Below are positions 1,914-64,000 of a stretch of DNA of 64,000 nt, in pieces. The stretch is from Candidatus Berkelbacteria bacterium (lineage in GTDB: Bacteria > Patescibacteriota > UBA1384 > UBA12157): the NCBI GenBank assembly GCA_037127955.1, contig JBAXXI010000002.1, positions 8,377-72,376 on the forward strand. The letters are read 5' to 3'. Within the stretch, counting starts at the first letter, position 1. Every line of letters begins with the position of its first letter. The notes beneath the pieces were generated by a model that ran no database searches, was not told the DNA's origin, and was given only the letters and a program-made list of their open reading frames with translations. Position numbers and translations under genes: made by a program.

Positions 1914-3689
1914 TTATATTTCGATGATCACCGGAATGATCATTGGTCGGCGCTCAGTTTCAGTAAACAAAAATTCACCTAATTCCTGACGCAAAGCTTT
2001 CTTGATAAAATCCCAGTTTGCCGGGTATTTTTCATTATGCTTATTAAAGGTTTTCTTGATTTCCTGGCGAGCCTTGTAAACCAAGTCTTCTCGTTCACGC
2101 ATATAAATAAACCCGCGCGAAATAATATCTGGACTAGTAATAGTTTTACCAGTTTCATGGTCAACCGTCATAATAATGACAAAAATACCATCTTTAGCCA
2201 TGGCTTGGCGGTCACGCAAGACAATATTGCCCACGTCTCCCACACCTAAACCGTCGACTAAAACATAAGAAGCGTCAACTTTTTGGTTTGAAATACGGGC
2301 ACCTTTTTCATCGATTTCGATCACTTGACCATCTTCAATAGTAAAGGTTTTTTCTTCTGGAATACCCAATTCTTGAGCTAAACGAGCGTGTAAAACCAAG
2401 TGACGAAACTCACCATGAATTGGCAAAAAGTACTCTGGTTTTACATTGGCAATCACCAACTTCAACTCATCACGTTTAGCGTGACCCGAGGAGTGAACTT
2501 TTTCTCGTTCTGAACCATAAAACACGTTTGAACCAAGTCGGTACAAATTATTGACGGTATCAGAGTAAGTGCGTTCATTACCAGGGATAGCACCAGCTGA
2601 GATAACCACTGTATCGCCTTTTTTGATTTTGATTTGGCGATGTTCGCCAGTCGACATACGGACCAAGGCTGAATATTCTTCACCTTGTGAACCGGTACAA
2701 AGAATAACTAATTGATTATCAGGAATCTTATCTGCGCCACGAATATCAACTAATATTCCTTGTGGCACCTTTAAATAGCCTAAATTCATAGCAATATTGA
2801 TCGCCTTTTCCATACTTCGACCAGCAATCGCCACCTTGCGGTGGTACTTCTGAGCCGAATTAATCACACCTTGAATACGATCAAGAGCGGAAGCAAACGA
2901 AGTCACAATCATACGGCCTTTGGCTTTACCAAATATACCTGCAATTGTATCGTGAACCACGCTTTCTGCGATTGGATTACTTTTAATTTCAACGTTAGTC
3001 GACTCAAGTAGTAATAATTTAACCCCACGAGCCGAAAATTCATTCAATTTATTTAGAATTTTTTGTGATTCTAATTTGTTTGGATCAAGCTTAAAGTCAG
3101 CAATATGAATAATTAAGCCTTCTGGAGTATCGATAGCCAAACCCACATCGTCCAAAAACGAGTGAGAAAATGGGATAAATTCGATTTTGAAAACACCTAA
3201 CTGAATCTTGTCGCCAGCTGTAATCAAACGGATTTGAGGTTTGAGTTCCATTTCTTCCATTTTTGATTCAATAAAACCAGCGGTGAGCTTGGTCGCATAA
3301 ATCGGGCATTGTAATTTTGGCCAAATGTAAGCAATAGCGCCAATATGATCTTCGTGTCCATGAGTAAAGACAATACCGCGAATCTTGGATTTACGTTCTT
3401 CAAGGTAAGCCACGTTTGGAATGATAAAATCGATGCCAAGCATTTCGGCTCGAGGAAACATGATACCGCAGTCAACGATTAAAATATCGTCGCCATACTC
3501 ATAAATTTGCATGTTTTTACCGATTTCGCCGTTTCCACCCATTGGGATAATTTTTAATTTTTTCGCCTCAGGCGCTTTGAAAGTTGCCAAAGGTTGGTTA
3601 CCGGTTTGTTTAGCTGGCCCATTGTATATCGGTCTGATATTAGGGTTAGCGGCCGGACGAGGTTGCTCGTAAGATTGTTTGTAAGCCAT
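1914..3689 (-). CDS. rnj: ribonuclease J (beta-CASP metallo-beta-lactamase RNase)
   Basis: KIIPMGGNGEIGKNM...; HGHEDHIGA (HxHxDH) motif; about 590 aa. This is classic RNase J architecture. Confidence 0.93.
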   Translation of the reverse strand: MAYKQSYEQPRPAANPNIRPIYNGPAKQTGNQPLATFKAPEAKKLKIIPMGGNGEIGKNMQIYEYGDDILIVDCGIMFPRAEMLGIDFIIPNVAYLEERKSKIRGIVFTHGHEDHIGAIAYIWPKLQCPIYATKLTAGFIESKMEEMELKPQIRLITAGDKIQLGVFKIEFIPFSHSFLDDVGLAIDTPEGLIIHIADFKLDPNKLESQKILNKLNEFSARGVKLLLLESTNVEIKSNPIAESVVHDTIAGIFGKAKGRMIVTSFASALDRIQGVINSAQKYHRKVAIAGRSMEKAINIAMNLGYLKVPQGILVDIRGADKIPDNQLVILCTGSQGEEYSALVRMSTGEHRQIKIKKGDTVVISAGAIPGNERTYSDTVNNLYRLGSNVFYGSEREKVHSSGHAKRDELKLVIANVKPEYFLPIHGEFRHLVLHARLAQELGIPEEKTFTIEDGQVIEIDEKGARISNQKVDASYVLVDGLGVGDVGNIVLRDRQAMAKDGIFVIIMTVDHETGKTITSPDIISRGFIYMREREDLVYKARQEIKKTFNKHNEKYPANWDFIKKALRQELGEFLFTETERRPMIIPVIIEI

Positions 3690-7069: not shown

Positions 7070-7180
7070 TTTTATTAATTCCGAAATCCGAATTCTAAAT
7101 CTCAAATAAAATATCAAACTGTTAAATTTCCAATTGGGAATTCTGATTTAATGATTTTATTCGTCATTCGTCATTCGAAC
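7070..7180. mobile_element. MITE-like repeat copy A (ORF-less) with about 17-bp terminal inverted repeats AAATCCGAAATCCGAAT / ATTCGGATTTCGGATTT
   Basis: CCGAAATCCGAATTCTAAAT…AATTGGGAATT…TTATTCGTCATTCG…TTCGGATTTT. Shares both ends and the internal AATTGGRAATTT…TTTATTCG block with the copies at 27335, 47222 and 63408. Confidence 0.7.
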
Positions 7181-7195
7181 TTCGGATTTTTTAAT

Positions 7196-7453
7196 TTACT
7201 TTTTTAAACCTAAATCTTTAATAAGTTTTTCGTACTTTTTTGTTTCGTTTTTCTTGAGATAATTCAAAAGACGGCGGCGTTTTCCAACCATCATCAAAAG
7301 TCCGCGGCGTGAATCTGAATCTTTAGCGTGCTTTTTCAAATGTTTGGCTAATTCAGCGATTTTCTCTGTTAAAAGAGCGACTTGAACATCGGTTGAACCA
7401 GTGTCATTTTTGTGTGTTTGGTACTTTTTGACCAAATCTTGTTTTTCTGCCAT
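7196..7453 (-). CDS. rpsO: 30S ribosomal protein S15
   Basis: 85 aa, full-length S15-like sequence. Lies downstream of pnp in the usual rpsO-pnp order (both on the minus strand). Confidence 0.93.
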
Positions 7454-10411: not shown

Positions 10412-10417
10412 TTCAGT

Positions 10418-10512
10418 ATAAAGTTAAAAGTCCAAAGTTAAAAGTTGCTTGGAATTACTATAAATATGATTTTTTCCATCTACTTTAAACCTTAAACTTT
10501 AAACTTTTAACT
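10418..10512. repeat. heptamer-tandem palindromic element (AAGTTTA/AAGTTAA type) in rpsT-lepB spacer
   Basis: Left arm AAGTTAAAAGTCCAAAGTTAAAAGTTG. AT-rich loop. Right arm ACTTTAAACCTTAAACTTTAAACTTTTAACT is its approximate reverse complement. Confidence 0.7.
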
Positions 10513-10527
10513 GTTTGCTGGAGGGGT

Positions 10528-18263: not shown

Positions 18264-20204
18264 TCACCGGATCCCAATGACATTAGTTAATAGAGCTTGA
18301 GCAGTATAAAGTAAAAGTAAACCTAGGACTACCCCCATCATTAAATCTTTGGCTGTGGTGATATTTTCTTGGTTACCCTGACTGGTCATGTACAAGTAAC
18401 CTGCGTACATAAAAATAGCAATAGCTAGTCCGCTTAAAATTGGTAAACCCCAAACAAAAAACTTGCTAATATAGTCACCAATATTATTAACCCTACCAAA
18501 GTCTGTATCTATATTACCTGTGGTATTTGATTGAGTTACGGGCGCGCCCACCGTTACATTGATTTTCCGAGATGGCGCCGCACCTTGAGCATAAACTTTA
18601 CTAAAAATATTTAAGAAACTTTCTTTCTGATTTTCCTCAATTAAAACTCTAACTTCATACTCGTGTTCACCTTCAGGAACATTTCTATCAATAAAGGTTC
18701 TACTGGCAGTTTCTCCAACCTGTTTTCCATCTCGATAGATTATAAAATTGGCTGGTGCATATAAATCATAAAATTGACCGATATCGATCGTAACATCATA
18801 ATTATTAACCGAGCTATTTACGGCGCCACTACTGTTACTACAATTTATACCGATTGTGGTAATATTCGACGGATTAACAGGATTTCGAGTACTAGCCGAA
18901 ACCGTACCCTCTTGTTTACAGTAATCTGTTTGATCGTTCGATTCGTTTTCATTAAAAACCTTAACCCTAATCAAATGATCGCCAGCACCTGTTCCCGAAG
19001 CAGATGTATTCCAGACATAATCAACAGTTTGATCCTCGCCAGTCAATAAACCGTGTGATTTCTGATAAAAACATTGGCCATTTTCAGGATTAGCGCATTT
19101 AGAACTCTTACTACTAACCCATAAATAATAAGTATAACCTTTTAACTTTTTAAAATTAATTTTTATTGGTGATTTCTGACCAAGTTTAATTTCACTCGGT
19201 GTGGTGATAATAATATCGCGTCCGCTTGATGGTATGACTGGATCGACTACTTTTGTCTGAGTCGGACTTGAAACAGTTTTATCGGGCGAAGTTGACGAAT
19301 CAGAATGAGGCTTACAACTATTTACTCCTGAATCAATATTATTTGGTGTGTTACCCTGCATTGAAACAACTTCTGCGCCAAGGTCACGATTAGTAATACT
19401 TAACAAAATATTCTTACCGCTTGGACAAGCCTGACGATACTCACTAGTAATTTTAGGAATATTAATACTTTGACCTGACTCACCAATAAAAACCTTCCTT
19501 GACAACCACTGAGTACCACTAAAAACCGTATTTGTCCCCTCTACTGGCAGATTCTCTCGACCCAACTGATCAATCGATGTAACAAATTTAACTTCATGAT
19601 TAGTATTTTTCCTGATTTTTGCTGCAAAAGGTTCAGTTTCAAAACTTTTACCGCTACCAGAAACTTTAAATATTAAAGAATTATCCTTTGGCACAGTTAA
19701 AGTCATAGTGACGGTTTCACCACTATGCCATTGAAAAGCTGGTGAAATAGGCGCCATATTCAAGCCGCTAGCTTCTGTTCTCCAGTAAGGACGAAAAACT
19801 ATCTGAGTTTGACTCGTATTGCCATTTTCGTCTTTACCAAGTTCCCATTCTAAACCAACATCTGATTCTTGTCCGTTAACATCTTTTATACCAAAATAAA
19901 TATCTGGATTATCCTTGGACTTACAATAATTATTAGAGGAATAAGTAACAGTCTGAAAACGATTATCATCAGGCTTAACACTGCCTAAAACAACGGTCGC
20001 CTCAATACCGGTAAAATTCCCCCGACTAGTATTTTTTAAATAATAAGCACCAGGAAAACAAGATTTTGAACTAACCATATTGTTAAGCTCATCCGCCGAG
20101 GAAAAAGGATTGCCTAAAACAAAAAACAAGATAATTAAAAAAACAATTATGATCAATGAGTACAACCAATATTTTTTGGCTTTAAATAGATTTCTTAATT
20201 TCAA
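18264..20204 (-). CDS. large surface protein with N-terminal TM and C-terminal VirB2/TrbC-pilin-like double-TM domain
   Basis: N-terminal anchor helix and roughly 550 aa of Ser/Thr/Asn-rich ectodomain. The C-terminal 70 aa has two hydrophobic helices separated by a short polar loop (…VWGLPILSGLAIAIFMYAGYLYMTSQGNQENITTAKDLMMGVVLGLLLLYTAQALL…). Confidence 0.55.
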   Translation of the reverse strand: MKLRNLFKAKKYWLYSLIIIVFLIILFFVLGNPFSSADELNNMVSSKSCFPGAYYLKNTSRGNFTGIEATVVLGSVKPDDNRFQTVTYSSNNYCKSKDNPDIYFGIKDVNGQESDVGLEWELGKDENGNTSQTQIVFRPYWRTEASGLNMAPISPAFQWHSGETVTMTLTVPKDNSLIFKVSGSGKSFETEPFAAKIRKNTNHEVKFVTSIDQLGRENLPVEGTNTVFSGTQWLSRKVFIGESGQSINIPKITSEYRQACPSGKNILLSITNRDLGAEVVSMQGNTPNNIDSGVNSCKPHSDSSTSPDKTVSSPTQTKVVDPVIPSSGRDIIITTPSEIKLGQKSPIKINFKKLKGYTYYLWVSSKSSKCANPENGQCFYQKSHGLLTGEDQTVDYVWNTSASGTGAGDHLIRVKVFNENESNDQTDYCKQEGTVSASTRNPVNPSNITTIGINCSNSSGAVNSSVNNYDVTIDIGQFYDLYAPANFIIYRDGKQVGETASRTFIDRNVPEGEHEYEVRVLIEENQKESFLNIFSKVYAQGAAPSRKINVTVGAPVTQSNTTGNIDTDFGRVNNIGDYISKFFVWGLPILSGLAIAIFMYAGYLYMTSQGNQENITTAKDLMMGVVLGLLLLYTAQALLTNVIGIR

Positions 20205-22465: not shown

Positions 22466-22549
22466 AGCAATAATCCTTACTATTAAAGCTTAATACAACT
22501 TGATTATAACAAATTTTTCAGGTAAAATGTAGTGGATGAAAATTAAATA

Positions 22550-22582
22550 AGTTTAAAGTTGAAGGTAAAAAGTTTAAAGAAC
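22550..22582. repeat. half-element of AAGTTTA-type heptamer repeat immediately upstream of tsaD start
   Basis: AAGTTTAAAGTTGAAGGTAAAAAGTTTAAAGAAC. No clear matching right arm. Confidence 0.4.
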
Positions 22583-23770
22583 ATGGAAAAAAACAATATT
22601 AAAATACTGGCTATCGAGACTAGTTGTGACGAAACCGCCGCCGCTGTTGTTGAATCTAAAAATGGCGAAGTTAAAATATTGTCAAACATTGTTAATAGCC
22701 AGATTGATCTTCATAAAGTTTTTGGCGGTGTTTTTCCAGAAATTGCCTCTAAGACTCATGTTGAAAATATCATTCCAGTGATCGAAGAATCACTGGATAA
22801 ATCCGAAATCAGAATGTCAAAATCCGAAAAATTGAATGACATAGATGTAATTGCTGTAACTAGCGGACCAGGTTTGATTGGTTCACTTTTAGTGGGCACA
22901 AACACGGCTAAAACCCTGGCTTTTACCAAAAGCAAGCCGATTTTACCGATTAATCATTGGCTAGGTCACATATACTCCACTTTCAGTGGAGAATTTCCAG
23001 TTTCCAGTTTCCAGTTTCCAAATAAATTATCTAATGAAGAAAAATCCAAAACTGAAAACTGTGAACTGAAAACTGAGAACTTGCCCCAATTCCCTCTTCT
23101 CGCTTTAATTGTTTCAGGTGGCCACACCGGTTTAGTGATTATGAAGAGCCACACCGAGTACGAAACTATCGGCCAAACCCTCGATGATGCCGCCGGCGAA
23201 GCTTTTGACAAGGTGGCCAAACTGCTCGAACTTGGCTACCCAGGTGGACCAGCGATTTCAGCCGCCGCTGAAAAGTTCACAGTTTACAGTTCACAGTTTA
23301 CATATAAAATAATTCCAAATATTAAATTTCCGCGGCCCATGATACATTCAGGGGACTTTAATTTTAGTTTTTCCGGACTTAAAACATCGGTACTGAATAA
23401 GGTTAGAGAACTTGCTCAAACATACACTTTAGATGAAATTAAAAATCAAATTGCTTACGAATTTCAACAAGCCATTATCGATACTTTAATTACTAAAACT
23501 TTAGAAGCTGCCAATGAATACAAAATCAAATCAATTTGTCTGTGCGGTGGCGTTTCGGCTAATAAGGAACTCCGAGACCAGTTGGCTTCCGCACTTGAGA
23601 ACTGGAAATTGGAAACTGGAAACTCTGAATTATCTCTTTTTGTTCCCCCGATGCACTTGACTGGCGACAACGCTGCCATGATCGGTATCGCCGCCGCTTA
23701 CCAACTCGCCAACGGTGTCGAACCAACGACTTTTGATCAGGTTAACGCGAACTCAAATTTAAAGTTATAA
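22583..23770 (+). CDS. tsaD: tRNA N6-adenosine threonylcarbamoyltransferase TsaD (Kae1/YgjD), carrying three in-frame repeat-derived insertions
   Basis: ILAIETSCDETAAAV, SGPGLIGSLLVG, HWLGHIYS, VSGGHTGL, DDAAGEAFDK and GGVSANKELR motifs. The protein is about 60 aa longer than typical TsaD. The extra segments are encoded by heptamer-repeat elements. Confidence 0.9.
   Translation: MEKNNIKILAIETSCDETAAAVVESKNGEVKILSNIVNSQIDLHKVFGGVFPEIASKTHVENIIPVIEESLDKSEIRMSKSEKLNDIDVIAVTSGPGLIGSLLVGTNTAKTLAFTKSKPILPINHWLGHIYSTFSGEFPVSSFQFPNKLSNEEKSKTENCELKTENLPQFPLLALIVSGGHTGLVIMKSHTEYETIGQTLDDAAGEAFDKVAKLLELGYPGGPAISAAAEKFTVYSSQFTYKIIPNIKFPRPMIHSGDFNFSFSGLKTSVLNKVRELAQTYTLDEIKNQIAYEFQQAIIDTLITKTLEAANEYKIKSICLCGGVSANKELRDQLASALENWKLETGNSELSLFVPPMHLTGDNAAMIGIAAAYQLANGVEPTTFDQVNANSNLKL
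22994..23080. repeat. heptamer-tandem palindromic element (GTTTCCA type) inserted in frame inside tsaD
   Basis: TTTCCAGTTTCCAGTTTCCAGTTTCCA-AATAAATTATCTAATGAAGAAAAATCC-AAAACTGAAAACTGTGAACTGAAAACTGAGAAC. 87 bp. Encodes FPVSSFQFPNKLSNEEKSKTENCELKTEN, which typical TsaD lacks. Confidence 0.75.
23275..23303. repeat. partial GTTCACA-type heptamer repeat inside tsaD (in frame)
   Basis: GTTCACAGTTTACAGTTCACAGTTTACA encodes …FTVYSSQFTY…, an 11-aa insertion relative to the E. coli TsaD alignment I did by eye. Confidence 0.55.
23596..23626. repeat. partial GAGAACT/GGAAACT-type heptamer repeat inside tsaD (in frame)
   Basis: GAGAACTGGAAATTGGAAACTGGAAACTCTG encodes …ENWKLETGNSE…. Confidence 0.55.
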
Positions 23771-25215: not shown

Positions 25216-27336
25216 ATGAAGGAACTAGCAAAAAACTACAATCCGAAAGAAACTGAAGATAAAATTTACGCGCTTTGGGAAAAAGCCGAGGCTTTTAAAC
25301 CTGTTATTGATAATCCGTCAGCTGATGGACAAAAACCTTTTGTAGTAGTTATTCCGCCACCGAATGTCACTGGCTCCCTTCATATGGGCCATGCTCTCAA
25401 TAATACGATTCAAGATATATTAATCCGCCGTTCGCGCATGCGCGGCGTGCCAACTTTATGGATCCCTGGCACTGATCATGCTGGTATCGCCACTCAAAAT
25501 GTGGTGGAGAAAAAATTAGCCAAAGAAGGCACTTCTCGTCACGAATTAGGTCGTGAAGAATTTACCAAAGAAATTTGGACCTGGGTTGACCAATACGGCA
25601 ACACCATTATCAATCAGTTAAAGAGTATGGGTTGTTCTTGCGACTGGTCGCGTCAGCGTTTTACCATGGACGAGGGTTACGCTGAAGCCGTCAAAGCCAC
25701 CTTTATTCGTTACTATGAAAAAGGTTGGATTTACCGCGGTGAACGCGTGGTCAACTGGTGTACTCGCTGCCAAACATCGCTTTCAGATATCGAGGTTGAA
25801 TACAAAGAAGAAAAAGGTAAATTATACTGGATTAAATATGGGCCTTTCACTTTAGCCACCACCAGACCAGAAACTAAACTGGGTGACACGGCCGTTGCAG
25901 TTCACCCAGACGACAAGAGATATAAAGATATGGTTGGCAAAACATATACGATTAAAGGCGTAAATGGTGATTTTGATGTGATTGTTATTGCTGATAGATA
26001 TGTTGACCCAAATTTTGGTACTGGCGCCGTAAAAGTAACCCCAGCTCACGATTTCTCTGATTATGAAGCATCTCTCAGACACAATGTGCCGATGAAACAA
26101 ATTATCGATAAATACGGTAAAATGATGGACAACTGCGGTAAATACGCTGGCATGAAGACCGCTGAAGCTCGCGAAGCTATTGTCGAAGATATGCAAAAAA
26201 TGGGCTTAATTGACCATATCGATGAAGATTACATCCATAATGTCGGAACCTGTTATCGTTGTGGTAAAATCATCGAGCCACAACCAAGTAAACAATGGTT
26301 TGTCAAAATGGACGAACTAGCTAAACCGGCTATCGAAGCGGTTAAGAGTGGTGCTATCAAATTTACCCCAGAGCGCTGGAGTAAAGTGTATTTAGATTGG
26401 ATGGAAAACCTGCGCGACTGGTGTATTTCTCGTCAAATCTGGTGGGGCCACCAAATCCCAGCCTGGGAAAAAGGCGACGAAATTTATGTCGGTGATAATC
26501 CGCCAGAAGGTTTTACCAGGTCGGAAGATGTTTTAGATACTTGGTTTAGCTCCGCCCTTTGGCCATTTGCCACCCTTGGCTGGCCTAGCAAAACCGAAGA
26601 TTTAAAGCATTTCTACCCTACCAGTGTGCTTTCAACAGCCCGCGATATCCTCTATCTTTGGGTTGCCCGCATGATTTTCTCTGGGTACGAATTTACTGGC
26701 GAAAAACCATTTTCCGAAGTTTATATTCACCCAACCGTTTTCAATAAAGAAGGTAAACGCATGTCCAAATCACTTGGTACCGGCGTTGATCCGCTACTTT
26801 TAATTGACCAGTACGGCGCCGACGCCATGCGTTTCGGTTTAAGTTATATTAATACCGGTGTCCAAGATTTGAAGTTCGACGAGGAAGCGATCAAAGCTGG
26901 TGGTAAATTTGCCAATAAACTCTGGAATATCTCTCGTTTTCTTACCTGGAAATTAGAAAACGAAAATCCAAAATCAGAAATCAAAATTACAAATGAAACA
27001 CCAGAACCTAAATCCGAAGCCGACAAAATCATATTAACTAAATTAAACGAAGTTATTTCTTTAGTCGATAAAGACTTAGATGAGTTCAAATTTGGCCAAG
27101 CCGCTCACGAACTCTACGATTTTGTTTGGCACGATTTAGCCGATGTCTATATCGAAGAAAGTAAAAAAGAACTAAATTTACCAGTTTTGCAGCACATTAT
27201 TACCTCTTCGATTAAACTTCTACACCCAATTATGCCTTTTGTAACTGAAGAAATCTGGCAAAACTTGTACGAAAACAAAATAGTTGATGAAAAATTATTG
27301 ATTAAAGCCAAATGGCCAAATGCTAAAAGCGTTTAA
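25216..27336 (+). CDS. valS: valine--tRNA ligase (short form lacking C-terminal coiled-coil)
   Basis: PPPNVTGSLHMGHAL (HIGH) and KMSKSLGTGVDP (KMSKS) motifs; editing-domain sequence present; 706 aa. Confidence 0.93.
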   Translation: MKELAKNYNPKETEDKIYALWEKAEAFKPVIDNPSADGQKPFVVVIPPPNVTGSLHMGHALNNTIQDILIRRSRMRGVPTLWIPGTDHAGIATQNVVEKKLAKEGTSRHELGREEFTKEIWTWVDQYGNTIINQLKSMGCSCDWSRQRFTMDEGYAEAVKATFIRYYEKGWIYRGERVVNWCTRCQTSLSDIEVEYKEEKGKLYWIKYGPFTLATTRPETKLGDTAVAVHPDDKRYKDMVGKTYTIKGVNGDFDVIVIADRYVDPNFGTGAVKVTPAHDFSDYEASLRHNVPMKQIIDKYGKMMDNCGKYAGMKTAEAREAIVEDMQKMGLIDHIDEDYIHNVGTCYRCGKIIEPQPSKQWFVKMDELAKPAIEAVKSGAIKFTPERWSKVYLDWMENLRDWCISRQIWWGHQIPAWEKGDEIYVGDNPPEGFTRSEDVLDTWFSSALWPFATLGWPSKTEDLKHFYPTSVLSTARDILYLWVARMIFSGYEFTGEKPFSEVYIHPTVFNKEGKRMSKSLGTGVDPLLLIDQYGADAMRFGLSYINTGVQDLKFDEEAIKAGGKFANKLWNISRFLTWKLENENPKSEIKITNETPEPKSEADKIILTKLNEVISLVDKDLDEFKFGQAAHELYDFVWHDLADVYIEESKKELNLPVLQHIITSSIKLLHPIMPFVTEEIWQNLYENKIVDEKLLIKAKWPNAKSV

Positions 27337-27795
27337 ATCCGAAATCCGAATTCTAAATTTCAAATAAAAGGCGAAAATGTCAAATGATGAAACCAAATTT
27401 GACTTAGAAGAAAGAACCGCTAAATTCGGTGAGGATGTTATAAATTTCGTTAAAACGATACATTTAAACGAAATCAATCGCCCATTGATCAGTCAATTAA
27501 TCAGATCTGCAACAAGCGTAGGCGCCAATTACTGTGAAGCAGATTGCGCAGAAACAAAAAAGGATTTCGAGCATAAGCTTGGAATATGTCGTAAAGAATC
27601 AAAAGAAACCAAACACTGGTTGAGAATGATGGCGACAGCCCAACCAGATTTAAAAGAAAATCTACGATCAATATGGAAAGAGTCCAACGAATTAAATTTA
27701 ATCTTCTCTTCAATAATTCGTAAATCTAGAAATAAATTGTAGAATTGGAAATTTAATATTTTATTCGACATTCGAGTTTCGTCATTCTGATTTAT
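27335..27795. mobile_element. Long copy B of the TIR repeat, carrying the four-helix-bundle (Avd/IVS-protein-like) gene
   Basis: Left end AAATCCGAAATCCGAATTCTAAATTTCAAATAAAA overlaps the valS stop codon. Right end AATTGGAAATTTAATATTTTATTCGACATTCGAGTTTCGTCATTCTGATTT. The ORF 27377..27742 lies between them. Confidence 0.7.
27377..27742 (+). CDS. four-helix-bundle protein (23S rRNA intervening-sequence protein / Avd-like family)
   Basis: LISQLIRSATSVGANYCEA and KKDFEHKLGICRKESKETKHWLRMM match the family signature; 121 aa. Located inside a TIR-bounded repeat. Confidence 0.8.
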   Translation: MSNDETKFDLEERTAKFGEDVINFVKTIHLNEINRPLISQLIRSATSVGANYCEADCAETKKDFEHKLGICRKESKETKHWLRMMATAQPDLKENLRSIWKESNELNLIFSSIIRKSRNKL

Positions 27796-40278: not shown

Positions 40279-41430
40279 TTATTTCATCGCTTTCTTAAGC
40301 TCTTCCACCTTATCTGTCTTTTCCCAAGTCAGGTTTAATTCTGTTCTACCAAAATGCCCATAAGCGGCTAGTTTTTGGTATACTGGTTTACGTAAATCTA
40401 GAGCCTCGATAATCATGCCTGGGCGTAAATCAAAAACTTTATTGACAGCTTCGGCAATCTTATCATCTTCAAACTTACCGGTACTAAAGGTATCAACTCG
40501 AACTGACATAGGCTCAGCTCGACCAATCGCATAAGCAATTTGCACTTCGGCGCGTTCAGCGAGCCCGGCAGCCACAATATTTTTGGCAACCCAACGGGCG
40601 GCATAACTACCAGATCGGTCAACCTTACTTGGATCTTTACCAGAGAAAGCACCGCCACCGTGGCGAGCATAACCGCCATAAGTATCGACGATAATTTTGC
40701 GACCAGTTAAACCAGTGTCGCCTTGAGGCCCACCAATCACGAAACGACCAGTAGTATTAACATAGAATTTAGTTTTACTGTCCAAATATTTCTCTGGAAC
40801 AACTTTTTTAATCACTAATTCGATAATTTCTTTTTGCAACTCTTTTTGTTTAATATTTTCATCGTGCTGAGCCGCGATTAAAACTGATTCAACTCTGACC
40901 GGTTTGTTACCATCGTACTCCACTGTGACCTGAGTCTTTCCATCTGGTCGAAGACCTTTGATAATCCCTTTTTTCCTAACTTCAGCTAAACGCGCAGCTA
41001 ATTTATGAGCTAAAACGATTGGTAAAGGCATAAGTTCCTTGGTTTCGGAACAGGCATAACCAAACATCAAACCTTGATCGCCGGCGCCAAGTTTCTCCAT
41101 ATTTTCCGCATCAACACCGCGAGCAATATCTACCGATTGACCAGTAATAGCCACATTGACGCCGCTAGTTTGCCAGTGGAAACCATATTCTGAGTCTGTA
41201 TAACCAATTTCTTTAATTTTGTTGCGAACAATCTTTTGAACATCAACATAAGTGTTAGTGGTAATTTCACCAGCAACCAAACAAAAACCATTAGTCAAAA
41301 AGGTTTCGCAAGCCACCCTAGCTTGAGGATCGTCAGTTAAAATTGCATCTAAAACCGCATCGGAAATTTGGTCAGCCATTTTGTCTGGGTGACCCTCGGT
41401 CACTGATTCGGAAGTAAAAAACTTTCGCAT
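40279..41430 (-). CDS. metK: S-adenosylmethionine synthetase
   Basis: [29 protein letters not shown] and DTYGG motifs. Confidence 0.97.
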
Positions 41431-41444
41431 TTTGTCCTTTCATT

Positions 41445-41580
41445 TACAAAAAAATCACCTTTTAAGGTGATGTATATTTTTACATTTTTCCCTAAAGGGT
41501 CGGAATTAGCACCCAACTTAAAGGGTTGCTGGTGGATCAACGGGCCGAATCCCTAACCACACTCTGAATATATTTTAGTT
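41445..41580 (-). promoter_or_regulatory. SAM-I (S-box) riboswitch in the metK leader, with intrinsic terminator as expression platform
   Basis: Minus-strand leader contains AGGGAUUCGGCCCGUUGAUCCACCAGCAACC … GGUGCUAAUUCCGACCC, matching the SAM-I core (GAGGGA-YGGCCCGAUGA…GGCAACC…GUGCYAAUUCC). This is followed by UCACCUUAAAAGGUGA and a U-run just before the metK ATG. Confidence 0.7.
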
Positions 41581-43858: not shown

Positions 43859-43940
43859 AGTTTCCAGTTTCCAGTTCACAGTTTCCAATTAAATAAAAAA
43901 TTGAGAACTAAATGAGAACTGAAAATTGAGAACTGAGAAC
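43859..43940. repeat. heptamer-tandem palindromic element (GTTTCCA type) between atpF and atpH
   Basis: GTTTCCAGTTTCCAGTTCACAGTTTCCA-ATTAAATAAAAAATT-GAGAACTAAATGAGAACTGAAAATTGAGAACTGAGAAC. Confidence 0.75.
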
Positions 43941-43947
43941 CTAAATT

Positions 43948-44331
43948 ATGAAGATTTCTGCAAAAATTTACGCTCAAACCTTAATCCAGTCAGCCACAGA
44001 AGATAATTTGAAAAAATTAGCTAAAAGTTTTTGGTACAAATTACAGAAAAATAAACAGTACAAAGATATGAGTAAGGTTTTAGAAGCTATTGATGAAGAA
44101 TCGGCAAGACTTGATAATAAAATTTTAGCCAAAATTTATTCAAAAAATGAAATTTCCCAAACAGAGAAACAAGCCATAAACGAAAAACTCAAAAATAAAT
44201 TCAAAAAAGAAATAATTTTGCAAAATATTATTGGCAAAAATATCACCGGTATTATCGTTAAAGTTGAAGATAAAATTATTGATTTAAGTTTAGAAGGTAA
44301 ACTCGATAAACTCAAAAGAGTTTTAAATTAG
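43948..44331 (+). CDS. atpH: F0F1 ATP synthase subunit delta (short form)
   Basis: C-terminal …GIIVKVEDKIIDLSLEGKLDKLKRVL matches the delta/OSCP C-terminus. Operon position supports the call. Confidence 0.7.
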   Translation: MKISAKIYAQTLIQSATEDNLKKLAKSFWYKLQKNKQYKDMSKVLEAIDEESARLDNKILAKIYSKNEISQTEKQAINEKLKNKFKKEIILQNIIGKNITGIIVKVEDKIIDLSLEGKLDKLKRVLN

Positions 44332-44420
44332 TTTCCAGTAATCAGTTCCCAGTTCACAGTTAATTTTTAAAATTTAATAAATTGAGAATTAATTGAAAAT
44401 TGGAAATTGAAAACTGAAAA
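44331..44420. repeat. heptamer-tandem palindromic element (GTTTCCA type) between atpH and atpA
   Basis: GTTTCCAGTAATCAGTTCCCAGTTCACAGTT-AATTTTTAAAATTTAATAAATT-GAGAATTAATTGAAAATTGGAAATTGAAAACTGAAAA. Confidence 0.7.
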
Positions 44421-44433
44421 TTTAGGAGAAAAT

Positions 44434-47204: not shown

Positions 47205-47221
47205 ATTTGCGCGCAAATTTA

Positions 47222-47323
47222 AAAATCCGAAATCAGAATTCTAAATGACAAATAAAATTCACGATTAATAAATTTTAAAATTGGACATTTTATTCGAAAT
47301 TCGAATTTCGTCATTCGGATTTA
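47222..47323. mobile_element. MITE-like repeat copy C (ORF-less) between atpG and atpD
   Basis: AAAATCCGAAATCAGAATTCTAAATGACAAATAAAATT…AATTGGACATTTTATTCGAAATTCGAATTTCGTCATTCGGATTT. Confidence 0.7.
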
Positions 47324-47371
47324 AAACAAATAAATATCATAAAAACTAAAAAAGATATTAAAAAGAGATAA

Positions 47372-49416: not shown

Positions 49417-49460
49417 TGCATAGTACGCAAATTTAAATATTGTGATATAATTGATACAGT

Positions 49461-49558
49461 CTAAAGTTTAAAGATAAAAGTTGAAAGTTCATGGAATTAA
49501 TTATTTATATTAATGTTTTTCATATTACTTTAAACCTTTAACTTTATACTTTATACTA
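49461..49558. repeat. heptamer-tandem palindromic element (AAGTTTA type) upstream of PrgI-like gene
   Basis: CTAAAGTTTAAAGATAAAAGTTGAAAGTT - loop - ACTTTAAACCTTTAACTTTATACTTTATAC. Confidence 0.7.
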
Positions 49559-49588
49559 ACTTGGAGGAGGGATACTATTCAGTTTCAA

Positions 49589-50071
49589 GTGCCGCAAAAT
49601 ATAGATCTAGAGGACAAAATCGTCGGGCCACTCACGCTGACCCAGTTTTTGTATGTCCTAGGTGGTGGTTTGCTTGACTATATCTTGTTCCAATCTTTAG
49701 GTAAAAACTACTTCGGAATTTTCCTTTTAATCGGCGGCCCAATCGCCATCATTGCTTTGTCTTTAGCTTTTTTTAAGGTTCAAGAACAACCTTTGTCACA
49801 CTTTATTACTGTTGGTATCAGTTATTTAACTAGACCAAAAGTTAGAATCTGGAAAAGACTAGATAGCTACCCAACTGTTTTAACCGAACCACCAAAGAAA
49901 AAAGAAGAAGAACCGATTATTATTAAAAAACACTTAGAAAAAAGCGAATTAGACCAGTTAGCCTATAATTTAGACACTTTTCAGTCAGATAAACCAGAAG
50001 AGAAAAAGAAAATTGGCAGTATTACCAGCGCTTTTGAACAATTATTAAAAGAACAACCAAAACAAAAATAG
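49589..50071 (+). CDS. PrgI/VirB3-like T4SS membrane protein
   Basis: DKIVGPLTLTQFLYVLGGG followed by two TM helices. Sits upstream of the VirB4 genes as in Gram-positive T4SS. GTG start. Confidence 0.5.
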   Translation: MPQNIDLEDKIVGPLTLTQFLYVLGGGLLDYILFQSLGKNYFGIFLLIGGPIAIIALSLAFFKVQEQPLSHFITVGISYLTRPKVRIWKRLDSYPTVLTEPPKKKEEEPIIIKKHLEKSELDQLAYNLDTFQSDKPEEKKKIGSITSAFEQLLKEQPKQK

Positions 50072-50146
50072 ACTTATAGTAATTAAGACTTTTAGACTTA
50101 TAGAGGCGAACTATAAGCCTATAGATCTAAAAGTCTATAAGTCTGA
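50071..50146. repeat. heptamer-tandem palindromic element (TAAGACT/TATAGAC type) upstream of 50160 gene
   Basis: GACTTATAGTAATTAAGACTTTTAGACTTATAGAGG-CGAAC-TATAAGCCTATAGATCTAAAAGTCTATAAGTCTG. Confidence 0.65.
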
Positions 50147-50159
50147 TGCAGGAGGGGAA

Positions 50160-50849
50160 TTGGCAGACAAAAACTCACAACCAATTATCAGCACCCAAGA
50201 ATTTTTGAGTTTTGCTGAAATTCACGACGGAGTCGTCATTACTAAAACCGGAGAACTTCGGGTTCTATTAATGGCGTCATCGATCAATTTTTCCCTTAAA
50301 AGCGAACAGGAGCAAACAGCTATTGTTTATGCTTACCAAAATTTCTTAAACTCTCTGGCTTTTCCAATTCAAATTATGCTCCAATCTAGAAAACTAGATT
50401 TAACCAAATACATAGCTAAACTCAAAGAAATTAGTCGAGTTCAAACCAATGAACTTTTGCGCGGTCAAACCAATGACTACATCAATTACATCACCAGATT
50501 GATCGAAGTGGCCAATATTATGGATAAAAAGTTTTATGTGGTTGTCTCTTATATGCCACCGGTTTTAGACATAAAAAAAACTGGTCTATTTCCGTCGAAT
50601 AACGACACTTCGAAAATCAAAATGACCCCAGAAAGCTTTGAAAAATACCGTCAAGAATTATCGCAGCGCGTACAGGTAATTCAAAACGGATTAGGTTCAA
50701 TCGGAGTTCGTACTGCTCCACTTAATACTCAACAAGTTGTTGAACTTCTTTACGGTATATATAACCCTGAAGAAGCAGCTAAAGAAAAATTAATTAATTT
50801 TAATCATCTTAATTCAGATGTGATTGAGAGTGAAATAGAACAGCAATAA
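50160..50849 (+). CDS. VirB4 N-terminal-domain-like protein (229 aa), separate ORF
   Basis: FAEIHDGVVITKTGELRVLLMASSINFSLKSEQEQ… resembles the start of Gram-positive VirB4/PrgJ/TcpF proteins. TTG start after GGAGGGG. Assigned from memory. Confidence 0.45.
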   Translation: MADKNSQPIISTQEFLSFAEIHDGVVITKTGELRVLLMASSINFSLKSEQEQTAIVYAYQNFLNSLAFPIQIMLQSRKLDLTKYIAKLKEISRVQTNELLRGQTNDYINYITRLIEVANIMDKKFYVVVSYMPPVLDIKKTGLFPSNNDTSKIKMTPESFEKYRQELSQRVQVIQNGLGSIGVRTAPLNTQQVVELLYGIYNPEEAAKEKLINFNHLNSDVIESEIEQQ

Positions 50850-50889
50850 TTAGATTAAGGCTTGACGCGGAAATTTTCTGAGGAAAATT

Positions 50890-52935: not shown

Positions 52936-52947
52936 ATTTATCAAAAA

Positions 52948-63407: not shown

Positions 63408-63505
63408 TGTCGAATAACAAAATCCGAATGTCGAACAAAATACTAAATTAATAAATCTCCAATTAGACGTTTTATTCGTCATTTGAAATTCGGATTTCGG
63501 ATTTA
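63408..63505. mobile_element. MITE-like repeat copy D (ORF-less) between dnaN and recF
   Basis: …AAAATCCGAATGTCGAACAAAATACTAAATTAATAAATCTCCAATTAGACGTTTTATTCGTCATTTGAAATTCGGATTTCGGATTT. Right TIR is perfect. Confidence 0.7.
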
Positions 63506-63507
63506 AC

Positions 63508-64000
63508 CTACTCGTCAATGCGTAACGGCATGATCACATATAAATAGTTTTTATCTTTATTACCACGGATCACCCCGGCCGCCATATTGTTAAGTAAGTC
63601 CAACGTAATTCTTTCTGAACCAATGACAGCTAAACAGTCCAAAATAAATTTAGCATTAAACGCTACTTCAAGTGAATCCCCTTTTACCACACCGGTAACT
63701 GTCGAGATATTATCGCCAACATGGCTCGATGTCGCCAAAACCTCAACCTTATCAGGCGCTGTAATTCGAAGTTTAATATTATTAGCTGATTCTCGGGCAA
63801 ACAAACTAGCCATTTTAATCGCATTATTAAACTCAGCTGTCGCCACCTCCATAGTGGTTTTACTTTCTTTTGGAATAATTTGAGCATAATCAGGAAAAGT
63901 TCCCTCGATCAATCGTGAAACTAAAATCGTATCTTCCATCACAAATTCGACTTGATTCTCCCCTGGTAGCACTCTCACCTTTTCCCCGGCGCTTGAAAGA
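63508..64000 (-). CDS. dnaN: DNA polymerase III beta sliding clamp, C-terminal part (partial; N-terminus beyond right edge)
   Basis: C-terminal domain sequence …GDSLEVAFNAKFILDCL…YVIMPLRIDE. Lies upstream of recF in the canonical dnaN-recF order. Confidence 0.9.
   Translation of the reverse strand, partial: LSSAGEKVRVLPGENQVEFVMEDTILVSRLIEGTFPDYAQIIPKESKTTMEVATAEFNNAIKMASLFARESANNIKLRITAPDKVEVLATSSHVGDNISTVTGVVKGDSLEVAFNAKFILDCLAVIGSERITLDLLNNMAAGVIRGNKDKNYLYVIMPLRIDE

What the first reader, a model, noticed from the sequence alone, without database searches (positions are those of the whole stretch)
22994..23626. Palindromic heptamer-repeat elements inserted in frame at three places inside tsaD
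TsaD is about 60 aa longer than usual. The extra peptide segments (about 29, 11 and 7 aa by my by-eye alignment to E. coli TsaD) are encoded exactly by GTTTCCA/GTTCACA/GAAAACT heptamer-tandem sequences. These are the same element that occurs as complete hairpins in atp operon spacers. This behaviour matches Rickettsia palindromic elements, which insert in frame into essential genes without disrupting them.
Basis: seen in the sequence. Interest (0 to 1): 0.75.

Follow-up and report, generated by a model that had tools for sequence, protein, structure and literature searches.

The report
In-frame heptamer-hairpin repeats inside tsaD
An essential tRNA-modification gene (tsaD) of an uncultured ultra-small (Patescibacteria/CPR) bacterium carries, in frame and translated, pieces of the same 7-base-repeat hairpin elements that fill the gaps between its other genes, much as Rickettsia palindromic elements do, and relatives show this across the whole clade.

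Summary
tsaD (22583-23770, 395 aa) is about 60 aa longer than solved TsaDs. The extra segments are encoded by four-unit tandem heptamer arrays: a complete hairpin (22993-23080, F138-N166), a 5'-arm-type array (23275-23302) and a 3'-arm-type array (23596-23623). They match the complete hairpins in the atpF-atpH and atpH-atpA spacers.

I add a fourth in-frame piece (22799-22833) from a second family (AAATCCG). That family also sits in frame in leuS and fills four intergenic spacers.

The coding copies are open only in the used frame. The one unit per 3' arm that would read TGA in frame is TGT or TGG instead.

Across 39 related TsaD genes, six loops are insertion hot-spots. Of inserts of 8 aa or more, 49% show 7-nt periodicity, against 0.5% of core windows. 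Of long inserts, 62% form hairpins, against 7%. Insert-free orthologues exist in the same synteny. The site-1 element is orthologous in a 64%-identical relative, where its 3' arm is 93% identical at DNA level against 67% for the core.

Best reading: dispersed STRR-like heptamer-hairpin repeats tolerated in frame in permissive loops. This is RPE-like behaviour, not RPE membership. The mobility mechanism is unknown. I rate it a new variant of a known kind.

The parts
22583..23770 (+). tsaD coding sequence (395 aa; an alternative TTG start lies at 22559).
   Evidence: Pfam PF00814 at E=1e-81. PDB TsaD hits at E=1e-67. AF2 model with pLDDT 86.3. Foldseek TM 0.89 to A. aeolicus TsaD.
22993..23080 (+). 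Site 1: a complete family-1 element in frame, encoding F138-N166. 5' arm 22993-23020 is (R)TTTCCA x4. The loop is 23021-23052. 3' arm 23053-23080 is TGAAAAC TGTGAAC TGAAAAC TGAGAAC.
   Evidence: Hairpin energy is -21.1 kcal/mol (z -3.8) on the sense strand and -34.9 (z -6.1) on the antisense strand. AF2 pLDDT is below 50 for residues 138-163. The element is orthologous to one in L052.
23275..23302 (+). Site 2: a family-1 array of 5'-arm type only (GTTCACA GTTTACA x2), encoding F232-T240.
   Evidence: It is complementary to the site-1 3' arm (-34.3 kcal/mol) and to site 3 (-23.9); the background is -5.7 +/- 3.0.
23596..23623 (+). Site 3: a family-1 array of 3'-arm type only (TGAGAAC TGGAAAT TGGAAAC TGGAAAC), encoding E339-N347 (ENWKLETGN).
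   Evidence: The same array sits at the same site in L016 and L053, and in a different loop in L001.
22799..22833 (+).
   Evidence: It lies in insert region B of the orthologue alignment. Pattern search. Alignment with intergenic family-2 copies.
22545..22592 (+). Half copy (5'-arm type) of family 3 (AAGTTTA AAGTTGA ...) abutting the tsaD start codon.
   Evidence: TRF. Sequence. Compare the full family-3 hairpins.
43860..43940 (+). Complete family-1 hairpin filling the atpF-atpH spacer.
   Evidence: Energy -20.8 kcal/mol, z -4.8. Pfam of flanking genes. Covariance model score 103 bits.
44331..44421 (+). Complete family-1 hairpin filling the atpH-atpA spacer.
   Evidence: Energy -27.0 kcal/mol, z -6.9. 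Also.
7072..7196 (.). Complete family-2 (AAATCCG) hairpin in the rpsO-pnp spacer; both genes are on the minus strand.
   Evidence: Energy -35.1 kcal/mol, z -5.5 on the minus (sense) strand. Pfam S15 and PNPase.
47218..47324 (.). Complete family-2 element in the atpG-atpD spacer.
   Evidence: The fold is weak, z about -1.5.
63412..63508 (.). Family-2 element in the recF-dnaN spacer; both genes are on the minus strand.
27335..27376 (+). Family-2 5' half, running from the leuS stop codon to the next start codon.
26958..27024 (+). Family-2-like array in frame inside leuS (AAATCCA AAATCAG AAATCAA AATTACA AATGAAA ...).
   Evidence: LeuRS Pfam.
10416..10516 (.). Family-3 (AAAGTTA / TAACTTT) hairpin between rpsT and lepB.
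49460..49560 (.). Family-3 hairpin upstream of a PrgI-family gene.

Best explanation
The genome carries several families of short (about 80-125 nt) palindromic repeat elements. Each arm is about four tandem 7-nt units, so the stem is 6-bp helices broken by one mismatch every seventh base.

Most copies fill spacers between co-directional genes. A minority of copies, or single arms, lie inside genes. Only those that are in frame, free of stop codons and placed in permissive loops survive.

In tsaD there are four such pieces. They are translated. Site 1 becomes a 29-aa segment predicted to be disordered. The other three pieces lie in loops that vary among orthologues, and sites 2 and 3 are modelled as extensions of helices. 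The catalytic core is intact.

Shown here: family identity with intergenic copies; the reading-frame filter; recurrence, gain and loss in the same six loops across the clade; and conservation of the arms at nucleotide level.

Inferred: the elements spread, and are kept alike, by recombination or template switching between arrays, or by an unidentified enzyme. Heptamer slippage adds and removes units. At the protein level the inserts are neutral passengers.

Intergenic copies probably act, if at all, as operon-internal RNA hairpins for stability, processing or translational coupling. The same has been proposed for cyanobacterial 7-bp STRR hairpins.
For: Family identity: for family 1; for family 2, where the order of variant units and the loop are conserved between copies.

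Translation filter. All four tsaD arrays sit in codon phases 3,1,2,3. The only phase-1 unit of each 3' arm is TGT or TGG. Nine of ten intergenic 3' units start with TGA. Intergenic copies have stops in all three forward frames, whereas the tsaD copy is open only in the used frame.

Protein. The AF2 core is confident and residues 138-163 have pLDDT below 50. TM-score is 0.89 to TsaD structures. H125, H129 and other invariant residues are kept.

Clade-wide pattern:
- There are six hot-spot loops. 49% of inserts of 8 aa or more have lag-7 identity of 0.5 or more, against 0.5% of core windows (Mann-Whitney p=6e-27).
- 62% of inserts of 18 aa or more fold with z below -2, against 7% of core windows.
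- Period-7 arrays run at 1.24 per kb in tsaD, 0.107 in other CDS and 0.68 in intergenic DNA (p=2e-30).
- The same repeat recurs in different loops of one gene in L017, L023, L003, L002 and L019.
- Insert-free orthologues exist, with the same FemAB neighbour in L031.

Nucleotide-level conservation against L052. The site-1 3' arm matches at 28/30 nt, against 66.9% for the core (p=7e-4). Third codon positions match at 63% inside the insert against 41% elsewhere.

Not an artefact. The identical protein is found on 9 contigs.

Analogy. STRR 7-bp hairpins lie between co-transcribed genes (PMC2670836).
Against: - No target-site duplication or terminal structure distinct from the arrays was seen. No transposase is encoded in the 64-kb window.
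- Half elements occur (sites 2 and 3, and L001 region E).
- Insert-free orthologues carry unit-like native sequence exactly at the sites. Site 3 has CTGCCCTGGAAAACT. L053 has TCTGAAAAT before LPQFP at site 1. Some arrays could therefore have grown in situ or been seeded by microhomology.
- Heptamer units are only modestly more shared within a locus (17%) than between loci (7%).
- No consistent strand bias of hairpin stability was found, so an RNA-level role is unproven.
- Surface exposure was inferred from low pLDDT and alignment gaps, not measured.
- Only 64 kb of the genome could be surveyed.
Confidence: 0.75

Rival explanations
1. In-situ microsatellite-like growth. Each array arose where it sits, by 7-nt replication slippage of local sequence plus fold-back template switching. 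On this view there is no dispersal of an element.
For: Heptamers dominate all tandem repeats in these loci: 221 period-7 arrays against 27 of period 6 and 54 of period 8, with a mode of 4 copies. Heptamers are the commonest long simple-sequence repeat in many bacteria (PMC4679880). Unit-like native sequence lies at sites 1 and 3 in insert-free orthologues. Solo arms exist. No target-site duplication was found.
Against: The same variant units, in the same order and with homologous loops, recur at unrelated loci. The same family sits in different TsaD loops in different genomes: site F in L016 and L053, region E in L001, regions B and C in L054. About 1,170 heptamer classes exist, so a shared class at five sites in 64 kb is not chance.
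Confidence: 0.15
2. Functional cis-elements. The hairpins or heptamer arrays are kept by selection on the nucleic acid, for example as binding or processing sites for a clade-specific protein or RNase. On this view their presence inside tsaD and leuS mRNAs is regulatory. This overlaps with the best explanation for the intergenic copies.
For: The 3' arm is 93% identical between genomes whose tsaD core is 67% identical, including at synonymous sites. Elements sit in operon spacers immediately before start codons. One fills the rpsO-pnp spacer, where E. coli has an RNase III-processed hairpin (own knowledge). tsaD density exceeds even the intergenic density.
Against: Presence is patchy and turnover is rapid among orthologues. 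Insert-free tsaD genes exist. There is no consistent sense-strand stability advantage, and the tsaD site-1 hairpin is weaker on the mRNA strand. Ongoing gene conversion from other copies would equally explain the nucleotide conservation.
Confidence: 0.2
3. Lineage-specific protein loops. The extra peptides are selected for a TsaD function specific to CPR bacteria, and the DNA periodicity is incidental.
For: Inserts recur at the same six loops. Sites 2 and 3 are modelled as helix extensions with pLDDT 80-96. Some peptides recur among orthologues, for example ENWKLE and TENCELK.
Against: The same DNA occurs in non-coding spacers. Peptides differ completely between close relatives and are absent in others. 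Conservation extends to third codon positions. Site 1 is predicted to be disordered.
Confidence: 0.05
4. Intervening sequences removed after transcription or bypassed by the ribosome, so that the mature protein lacks them.
For: The site-1 insert is a stable hairpin.
Against: The frame is kept and stops are specifically avoided in the used frame only. All 44 related tsaD genes read through without a stop. No Rfam intron or ribozyme matches.
Confidence: 0.02

Closest known systems
Rickettsia palindromic elements (RPE)
   Same: Both are short palindromic dispersed repeats found in intergenic DNA and in frame inside unrelated housekeeping genes. Both add a peptide without breaking the ORF. Both occur in a reduced genome (PMC10969869).
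   Different: The host is a different phylum. These elements are smaller (81-125 nt against about 100-150 bp). The arms are tandem 7-nt units with a periodic mismatch. Half elements are common. Many unit families coexist and turn over between genomes. No sequence comparison with RPE consensus sequences was possible here.
Cyanobacterial STRR (short tandemly repeated repetitive) heptanucleotide sequences
   Same: Both are 7-bp tandem units that can form hairpins between co-transcribed genes such as hupS-hupL. Their function is unknown; transcript stability or translational coupling has been proposed (PMC2670836). STRR also occur inside a functional gene, rnpB (Vioque 1997, title cited in PMC2858038).
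   Different: The unit sequences differ. The phylum is Patescibacteria. Here the arrays are translated, in frame, inside protein-coding genes.
TAACTGA and other heptamer direct repeats (Beggiatoaceae, Cyanobacteria, Bacteroidetes)
   Same: Both are genome-specific heptamer arrays of two to six units. Both are mostly intergenic and lie just upstream of start codons. Both are occasionally found inside ORFs, giving 7-aa repeats (PMC4679880).
   Different: Those are almost all direct repeats; the paper reports one indirect repeat. Here the arrays come as inverted pairs forming hairpins and recur in essential genes.
MITEs with in-frame insertions (e.g. Coxiella QMITE1, intragenic ERIC)
   Same: Both are non-autonomous palindromic repeats that can create in-frame fusions (PMC10969869; PMC5896051, listed).
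   Different: No terminal inverted repeat plus target-site duplication signature was seen here, and no related insertion sequence was found.
Borg tandem repeats creating disordered regions
   Same: Both are rapidly evolving nucleotide repeats that add intrinsically disordered segments to existing proteins (PMC9879509).
   Different: Borg repeats within ORFs have unit lengths divisible by three and are direct. Here the unit is 7 nt, so the frame rotates through each array, and the arrays are palindromic.

Membership tests
TsaD / Kae1 / Qri7 (the host gene) | Pfam PF00814 domain, ASKHA fold and the metal-binding His-x3-His motif. | tested here: met
   PF00814 at E=1e-81. Foldseek TM 0.89 to 8ifx_A. 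H125 and H129 are invariant.
Rickettsia palindromic elements (RPE) | Dispersed multi-copy repeat present in both intergenic and genic DNA. | tested here: met
   Family 1 has 5 sites and family 2 has 7 sites in 64 kb.
Rickettsia palindromic elements (RPE) | Palindromic, able to form a hairpin. | tested here: met
   z of -3.8 to -6.9 for full family-1 copies. Sites 2 and 3 are single arms only.
Rickettsia palindromic elements (RPE) | In-frame insertion in unrelated genes with the ORF kept open. | tested here: met
   tsaD has four pieces and leuS one. Relatives carry arrays in LeuRS, 5'-3' exonuclease and FemAB genes.
Rickettsia palindromic elements (RPE) | Insert lies at the protein surface and is compatible with the fold. 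| tested here: inconclusive
   Site 1 has pLDDT below 50 and lies between helix 125-134 and strand 172-177. The core superposes on TsaD. Solvent exposure and partner interfaces were not computed.
Rickettsia palindromic elements (RPE) | Sequence homology to the RPE-1 to RPE-10 consensus sequences; host genus Rickettsia. | not testable with these tools
   No RPE sequences were available. The closest loci by TsaD similarity are Berkelbacteria/Patescibacteria MAGs.
MITE | Terminal inverted repeats flanked by target-site duplications. | tested here: inconclusive
   The arms are inverted. The only flanking direct repeat at site 1 (GAGAA) is itself part of a unit.
MITE | A cognate autonomous insertion sequence or transposase in the genome. 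| tested here: not met
   None among about 50 window ORFs scanned. tblastn with the Y1 transposase of L054 finds nothing in the window. Only 64 kb of the genome was visible.
REP / RAYT system | 20-40 bp GC-rich palindromes with a GTAG or CGTC head, plus an associated Y1 (RAYT) gene (abstract of PMC3733652). | tested here: not met
   The arms are AT-rich 28-nt heptamer arrays without a GTAG or CGTC head. The window has no Y1_Tnp gene. A relative (L054) has a Y1_Tnp gene, but it is flanked by a different, non-heptamer repeat.
STRR / heptanucleotide long simple-sequence repeats | Tandem 7-nt units, mostly intergenic, sometimes forming hairpins between co-transcribed genes. | tested here: met
STRR / heptanucleotide long simple-sequence repeats | The cyanobacterial STRR unit sequences. 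| not tested
   The units here are GTTYMCA/TGRRAAY, AAATCCG and AAAGTTA. From memory the STRR units (CCCCAGT, TTGGTCA, CAACAGT) differ from these.

The most novel reading that the evidence does not exclude
The heptamer hairpins are not passengers. They are a nucleotide-level code kept by selection, even inside essential coding sequence. On this reading, periodic 7-nt arrays are read by a clade-specific nucleic-acid-binding or processing factor, for example a protein binding one unit per heptamer, an RNase, or a hairpin-specific Y1 enzyme. This would couple expression of tRNA-modification, aminoacyl-tRNA synthetase, ATP synthase and RNA-decay genes in bacteria that have very few classical regulators. 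tsaD would then be a preferred host because of that regulation, not merely because its loops are permissive.
Probability: 0.15. Interest if true: 0.8.

Novelty: new variant of a known kind. Interest (0 to 1): 0.62.

Why it matters
In-frame palindromic repeats in essential genes have been treated mainly as a Rickettsia peculiarity. Finding the same behaviour in Patescibacteria, with a different repeat architecture (tandem heptamers, as in cyanobacterial STRR), suggests it recurs in reduced, host-dependent genomes.

It gives a concrete source for the length variation of CPR housekeeping proteins. It also warns annotators and structure predictors that these "lineage-specific loops" are repeat DNA.

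The arms are more conserved than the enzyme core at synonymous sites. That makes tsaD a compact natural test case for a long-open question: what maintains heptamer repeats, and do they have a function? The six hot-spot loops also map where TsaD tolerates insertions.

Tried and rejected
- **More copies of family 1.** A covariance model built from the three full copies found no further strong copies in the window or in 28 related loci. The best other hits were 24-33 bits.
- **Known RNA families.** Rfam gave no family for the elements, only sub-threshold miRNA-like hairpin hits.
- **Sites 2 and 3 as two arms of one split hairpin enclosing 293 nt.** The arrays are complementary (-23.9 kcal/mol) and pair in the MFE structure. 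They do not pair in the centroid, and the region's z-score is -0.6. The site-2 array pairs even better with the site-1 3' arm (-34.3). I treat this as family complementarity, not a demonstrated structure.
- **Sense-strand bias of hairpin stability as a test of RNA function.** Results were mixed.
- **One heptamer family per genome.** Rejected. Several families coexist, and sharing of units within a locus is only 17% against 7% between loci.
- **Transposase search.** Pfam scans of about 50 window ORFs and tblastn with a relative's Y1 transposase found nothing.
- **DNA of the closest orthologue.** DNA for P0002 (77% identical) could not be retrieved.
- **Prior description.** Four literature searches that paired CPR or Patescibacteria with repeat-related terms found no description of such repeats in these bacteria.
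- **A link between the 7-nt unit and the 7-nt anticodon loop of TsaD substrates.** Considered and dropped. The units read as NNA anticodons, which are not t6A substrates (own reasoning).
Full report
**What is there**

The ORF at 22583-23770 (+) is tsaD. It matches Pfam PF00814 at E=1e-81. Its best solved relatives are bacterial TsaDs of 327-343 aa at E=1e-65 to 1e-67. It is 395 aa long. HMMER alignments to solved TsaDs break or gap at three places. Query residues 136-166 have no counterpart. About 8-10 residues near 232-242 are extra. Seven residues near 343-349 are extra.

The DNA under these gaps is tandem heptamers:
- 22993-23020: ATTTCCA (GTTTCCA)x3.
- 23053-23080: TGAAAAC TGTGAAC TGAAAAC TGAGAAC.
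- 23275-23302: GTTCACA GTTTACA GTTCACA GTTTACA.
- 23596-23623: TGAGAAC TGGAAAT TGGAAAC TGGAAAC.

A two-unit probe with up to 2 mismatches hits 10 times in the window. The expectation is 0.73, and 0 of 100 shuffles reach 10.

The first pair of arrays, with a 32-nt A/T-rich loop between them, forms a complete hairpin that encodes F138-N166. The other two arrays are single arms, one of 5'-arm type and one of 3'-arm type. Each array has exactly four units.

**Same family as the atp spacers**

The degenerate units GTTYMCA and TGRRAAY occur in tandem elsewhere in the 64 kb only at 43860-43940 and 44331-44421. These positions fill the spacers atpF-atpH and atpH-atpA (Pfam).

The three full copies align at 76-78% mean column identity, including the loop. 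All fold as hairpins of 6-bp helices with one mismatch every seventh base, at z -3.8 to -6.9. A covariance model built from them scores only these three strongly.

tsaD has a fourth insert. K73-L84 (22799-22833) lies in another loop that varies among orthologues (region B). It is a fragment of a second family whose variant units keep a conserved order: AAATCCG AAATCAG AATTCTA AATGACA AATAAAAT, then the loop, then TTTTATTCGTC ... TTCGGATTT.

Full copies of family 2 fill three spacers: rpsO-pnp (7072-7196), atpG-atpD (47218-47324) and recF-dnaN (63412-63508). A half copy runs from the leuS stop codon to the next start codon (27335-27376). Another piece is in frame inside leuS (26958-27024).

A third family (AAAGTTA) forms hairpins at 10416-10516 and 49460-49560, and a half copy abuts the tsaD start codon. 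An octamer-based hairpin lies at 50064-50148.

The conserved order of variant units and the homologous loops show that these are copies of specific sequences, not independent slippage products.

**The coding copies are translated**

A 7-nt unit rotates through all three codon phases. All four family-1 arrays in tsaD sit in phases 3,1,2,3.

In each 3' arm, the single unit that starts in phase 1 is TGT (C160) or TGG (W341). Nine of ten units in the intergenic 3' arms begin with TGA.

Intergenic copies have stop codons in all three forward frames. The tsaD copy is open in exactly one forward frame, the one that is used.

All 44 related tsaD genes I extracted read through without stops. The identical protein is recorded on 9 contigs, so this is not an assembly artefact.

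**Effect on the protein**

An AF2 model has mean pLDDT 86.3 and pTM 0.85. Residues 138-163 fall below pLDDT 50, lying between helix 125-134 and strand 172-177. Site 2 lies at the end of helix 221-237 and site 3 at the end of helix 328-345.

The model superposes on A. aeolicus and E. coli TsaD with target-normalised TM 0.88-0.89. H125, H129 and 88 other positions are invariant among 25 relatives.

Surface exposure is inferred from this. I could not compute it.

**Comparative evidence**

Homologues in this Berkelbacteria/Patescibacteria-like clade range from 330 to 513 aa. I collected 14 loci from genomes and 36 from metagenomes, plus three by exact protein look-up.

In an alignment of 39 non-redundant tsaD genes, all length variation falls in six loops. 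These lie after window residues 25, 75, 138, 236, 282 and 343.

- Of 76 inserts of 8 aa or more, 49% have lag-7 DNA identity of 0.5 or more. Only 0.5% of 1,540 core windows do (Mann-Whitney p=6e-27).
- Of 42 inserts of 18 aa or more, 62% fold with z below -2, against 7% of core windows. This includes a second kind of insert that is GC-rich and not heptameric (L023, L026, L020, L005).
- Within single genes the same repeat occupies different loops: L017 A and B; L023 A and C; L003 B and C; L002 A and C; L019 A, B and F.
- Presence is patchy among orthologues of 62-72% core identity. Four orthologues have no inserts at all, and L031 has the same FemAB neighbour as the window.

It is not met.

**tsaD is a hot-spot, but not the only one**

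Period-7 TRF arrays occur at 1.24 per kb in tsaD, 0.107 per kb in other CDS and 0.68 per kb in intergenic DNA over 46 loci. The binomial probability for tsaD against other CDS is 2e-30.

The other CDS hosts include LeuRS, 5'-3' exonuclease and FemAB genes (Pfam on eight of these ORFs).

Period 7 dominates all tandem repeats in these loci: 221 arrays, against 27 of period 6 and 54 of period 8. The mode is four copies.

There is some ascertainment bias. Every locus was fetched through tsaD, and one of the six search peptides was itself repeat-encoded.

**Age and conservation**

Family 1 is old and widespread:
- At site 3: L016 and L053.
- In a different loop: L001 (region E).
- In loops B and C, and in an intergenic spacer: L054.
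- At site 1: L052.

The L052 site-1 element is clearly orthologous: GTTCTCA ATTCTCA ATTTCCA GTTTCCA, a loop, then TGAAAAC TGTGAAC TGAAAAT TGAAAAC. The TGT unit is in the same place.

Between the window and L052, core DNA is 66.9% identical. The 3' arm is 28/30 identical (p=7e-4). Third codon positions are 63% identical inside the insert against 41% elsewhere.

Something therefore acts on the nucleotides. It could be selection on the repeat or hairpin, or continuing homogenisation against other family copies.

L053 is closer to the window than L052 but has no site-1 insert. It reads TCTGAAAAT immediately before LPQFP. That is one unit, and could be either a deletion scar or a native seed. At site 3, insert-free orthologues read CTGCCCTGGAAAACT, again unit-like.

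**Mechanism**

I commit to dispersed heptamer-hairpin repeat families that are tolerated in frame in permissive loops and translated.

How they spread is not shown. I found no target-site duplication. None of about 50 window ORFs is a transposase. A Y1 (IS200/RAYT-type) gene in relative L054 is flanked by a different REP-like repeat and has no homologue in the window.

Given the unit-like native sequences at insertion points, I consider microhomology-primed template switching or gene conversion between arrays, plus 7-nt slippage, the most likely route. That step is inference.

An RNA-level role for the intergenic copies is plausible. They sit in operon spacers directly before start codons. One fills the rpsO-pnp spacer and folds at -35.1 kcal/mol (z -5.5) on the sense strand. 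However, hairpin stability shows no consistent strand bias.

**Comparison with what is known**

The behaviour equals that of Rickettsia palindromic elements (PMC10969869). The architecture equals that of cyanobacterial STRR: 7-bp repeats able to form hairpins between co-transcribed genes, with unknown function (PMC2670836). STRR are also found inside rnpB (Vioque 1997, cited in PMC2858038).

Heptamer arrays are known to be the commonest long simple-sequence repeat in many bacteria and to be mostly intergenic (PMC4679880; PMC4692102).

(GTTTCCA)n arrays, next to other heptamer arrays, also occur in 13 viral contigs, most of them GC-rich (0.49-0.66). One of them, L067, forms a perfect hairpin.

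Borg tandem repeats also add disordered regions to proteins, but their units are divisible by three (PMC9879509).

Four searches that paired CPR or Patescibacteria with repeat-related terms found no description of these elements in these bacteria.

**Verdict**

This is a real feature, correctly seen and correctly interpreted in kind. It is a new variant of a known kind. It turns out to be a clade-wide property of TsaD and a few other housekeeping genes.

Noticed in passing
window 7072-7196: A family-2 heptamer hairpin fills the rpsO-pnp spacer. It folds at -35.1 kcal/mol (z -5.5) on the sense strand. In E. coli this spacer holds the RNase III-processed pnp leader hairpin (own knowledge). RNase J is encoded nearby at 1914-3689.
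   Followed up: partly
window 26958-27024 and 27335-27376: leuS carries an in-frame family-2-like heptamer array. A family-2 half copy runs from its stop codon to the next start codon. In relatives, LeuRS is a second hot-spot for in-frame arrays.
   Followed up: partly
window 41479-41574 (-): A SAM riboswitch (RF00162, 54.9 bits) lies upstream of metK (40279-41430, -).
   Followed up: no
window 50064-50148: A hairpin built from 8-nt units (ATAGACTT / AAGTCTAT) folds at -26.5 kcal/mol. It lies between a PrgI-family gene and the next ORF. The tandem-unit hairpin design is therefore not restricted to 7-mers.
   Followed up: partly
L054 13870-14070 and 14625-14870: A Y1_Tnp (IS200/RAYT-type) gene in a relative is flanked on both sides by several copies of a REP-like repeat (AAGCTTGYTCTCCG..CTGGAGCGCAGACTTTAGTCTG). 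This looks like a classical REP/RAYT arrangement in a CPR genome. The window has no homologue.
   Followed up: partly
L023, L026, L020, L005, L053 tsaD loops: A second kind of in-frame insert is GC-rich (0.52-0.66 GC in AT-rich genes) and about 30 aa long, with peptides such as SEMPVTRTKFESR. Several of these inserts form hairpins, although two L023 copies do not reach z < -2. It sometimes occurs twice in one gene. In L053 it follows a heptamer array within the same site-D insert.
   Followed up: partly
region E of tsaD in L019, L040, L002, L017, L024, L016, L021: A CACTATC-type heptamer array encoding HYPL(S/T)xIR is kept at the same place in many orthologues without adding length. It looks like an old array that has been absorbed into the protein.
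   Followed up: no
L055-L067 (viral contigs): Exact (GTTTCCA)3 occurs in 13 viral contigs, most of them GC-rich (0.49-0.66), usually next to other heptamer arrays. L067 has a perfect (GTTTCCA)4/(TGGAAAC)4 hairpin. Heptamer arrays of this unit are therefore not confined to CPR bacteria.
   Followed up: partly
window 22966-23220 (-) and 23464-23679 (-): Antisense ORFs of 84 and 71 aa across the arrays exist only because the heptamers are also stop-free on the reverse strand. They are probably not genes.
   Followed up: partly
window 18264-20204 and 49589-54147: Genes resembling type IV secretion or conjugation components are present: a T4SS pilin domain, PrgI, a TraG/VirB4-like ATPase, and an SLT plus C39-like peptidase. 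A 23S_rRNA_IVP-family gene follows leuS here (27377-27742); genes of the same Pfam family are present, at varying positions, in three relatives (L052-L054).
   Followed up: no
L022 vs L025, tsaD region B: Two near-identical relatives differ by one extra copy of a 24-nt (8-aa, QKNVAQAL) in-frame unit. This is a direct example of copy-number change inside a TsaD loop.
   Followed up: no
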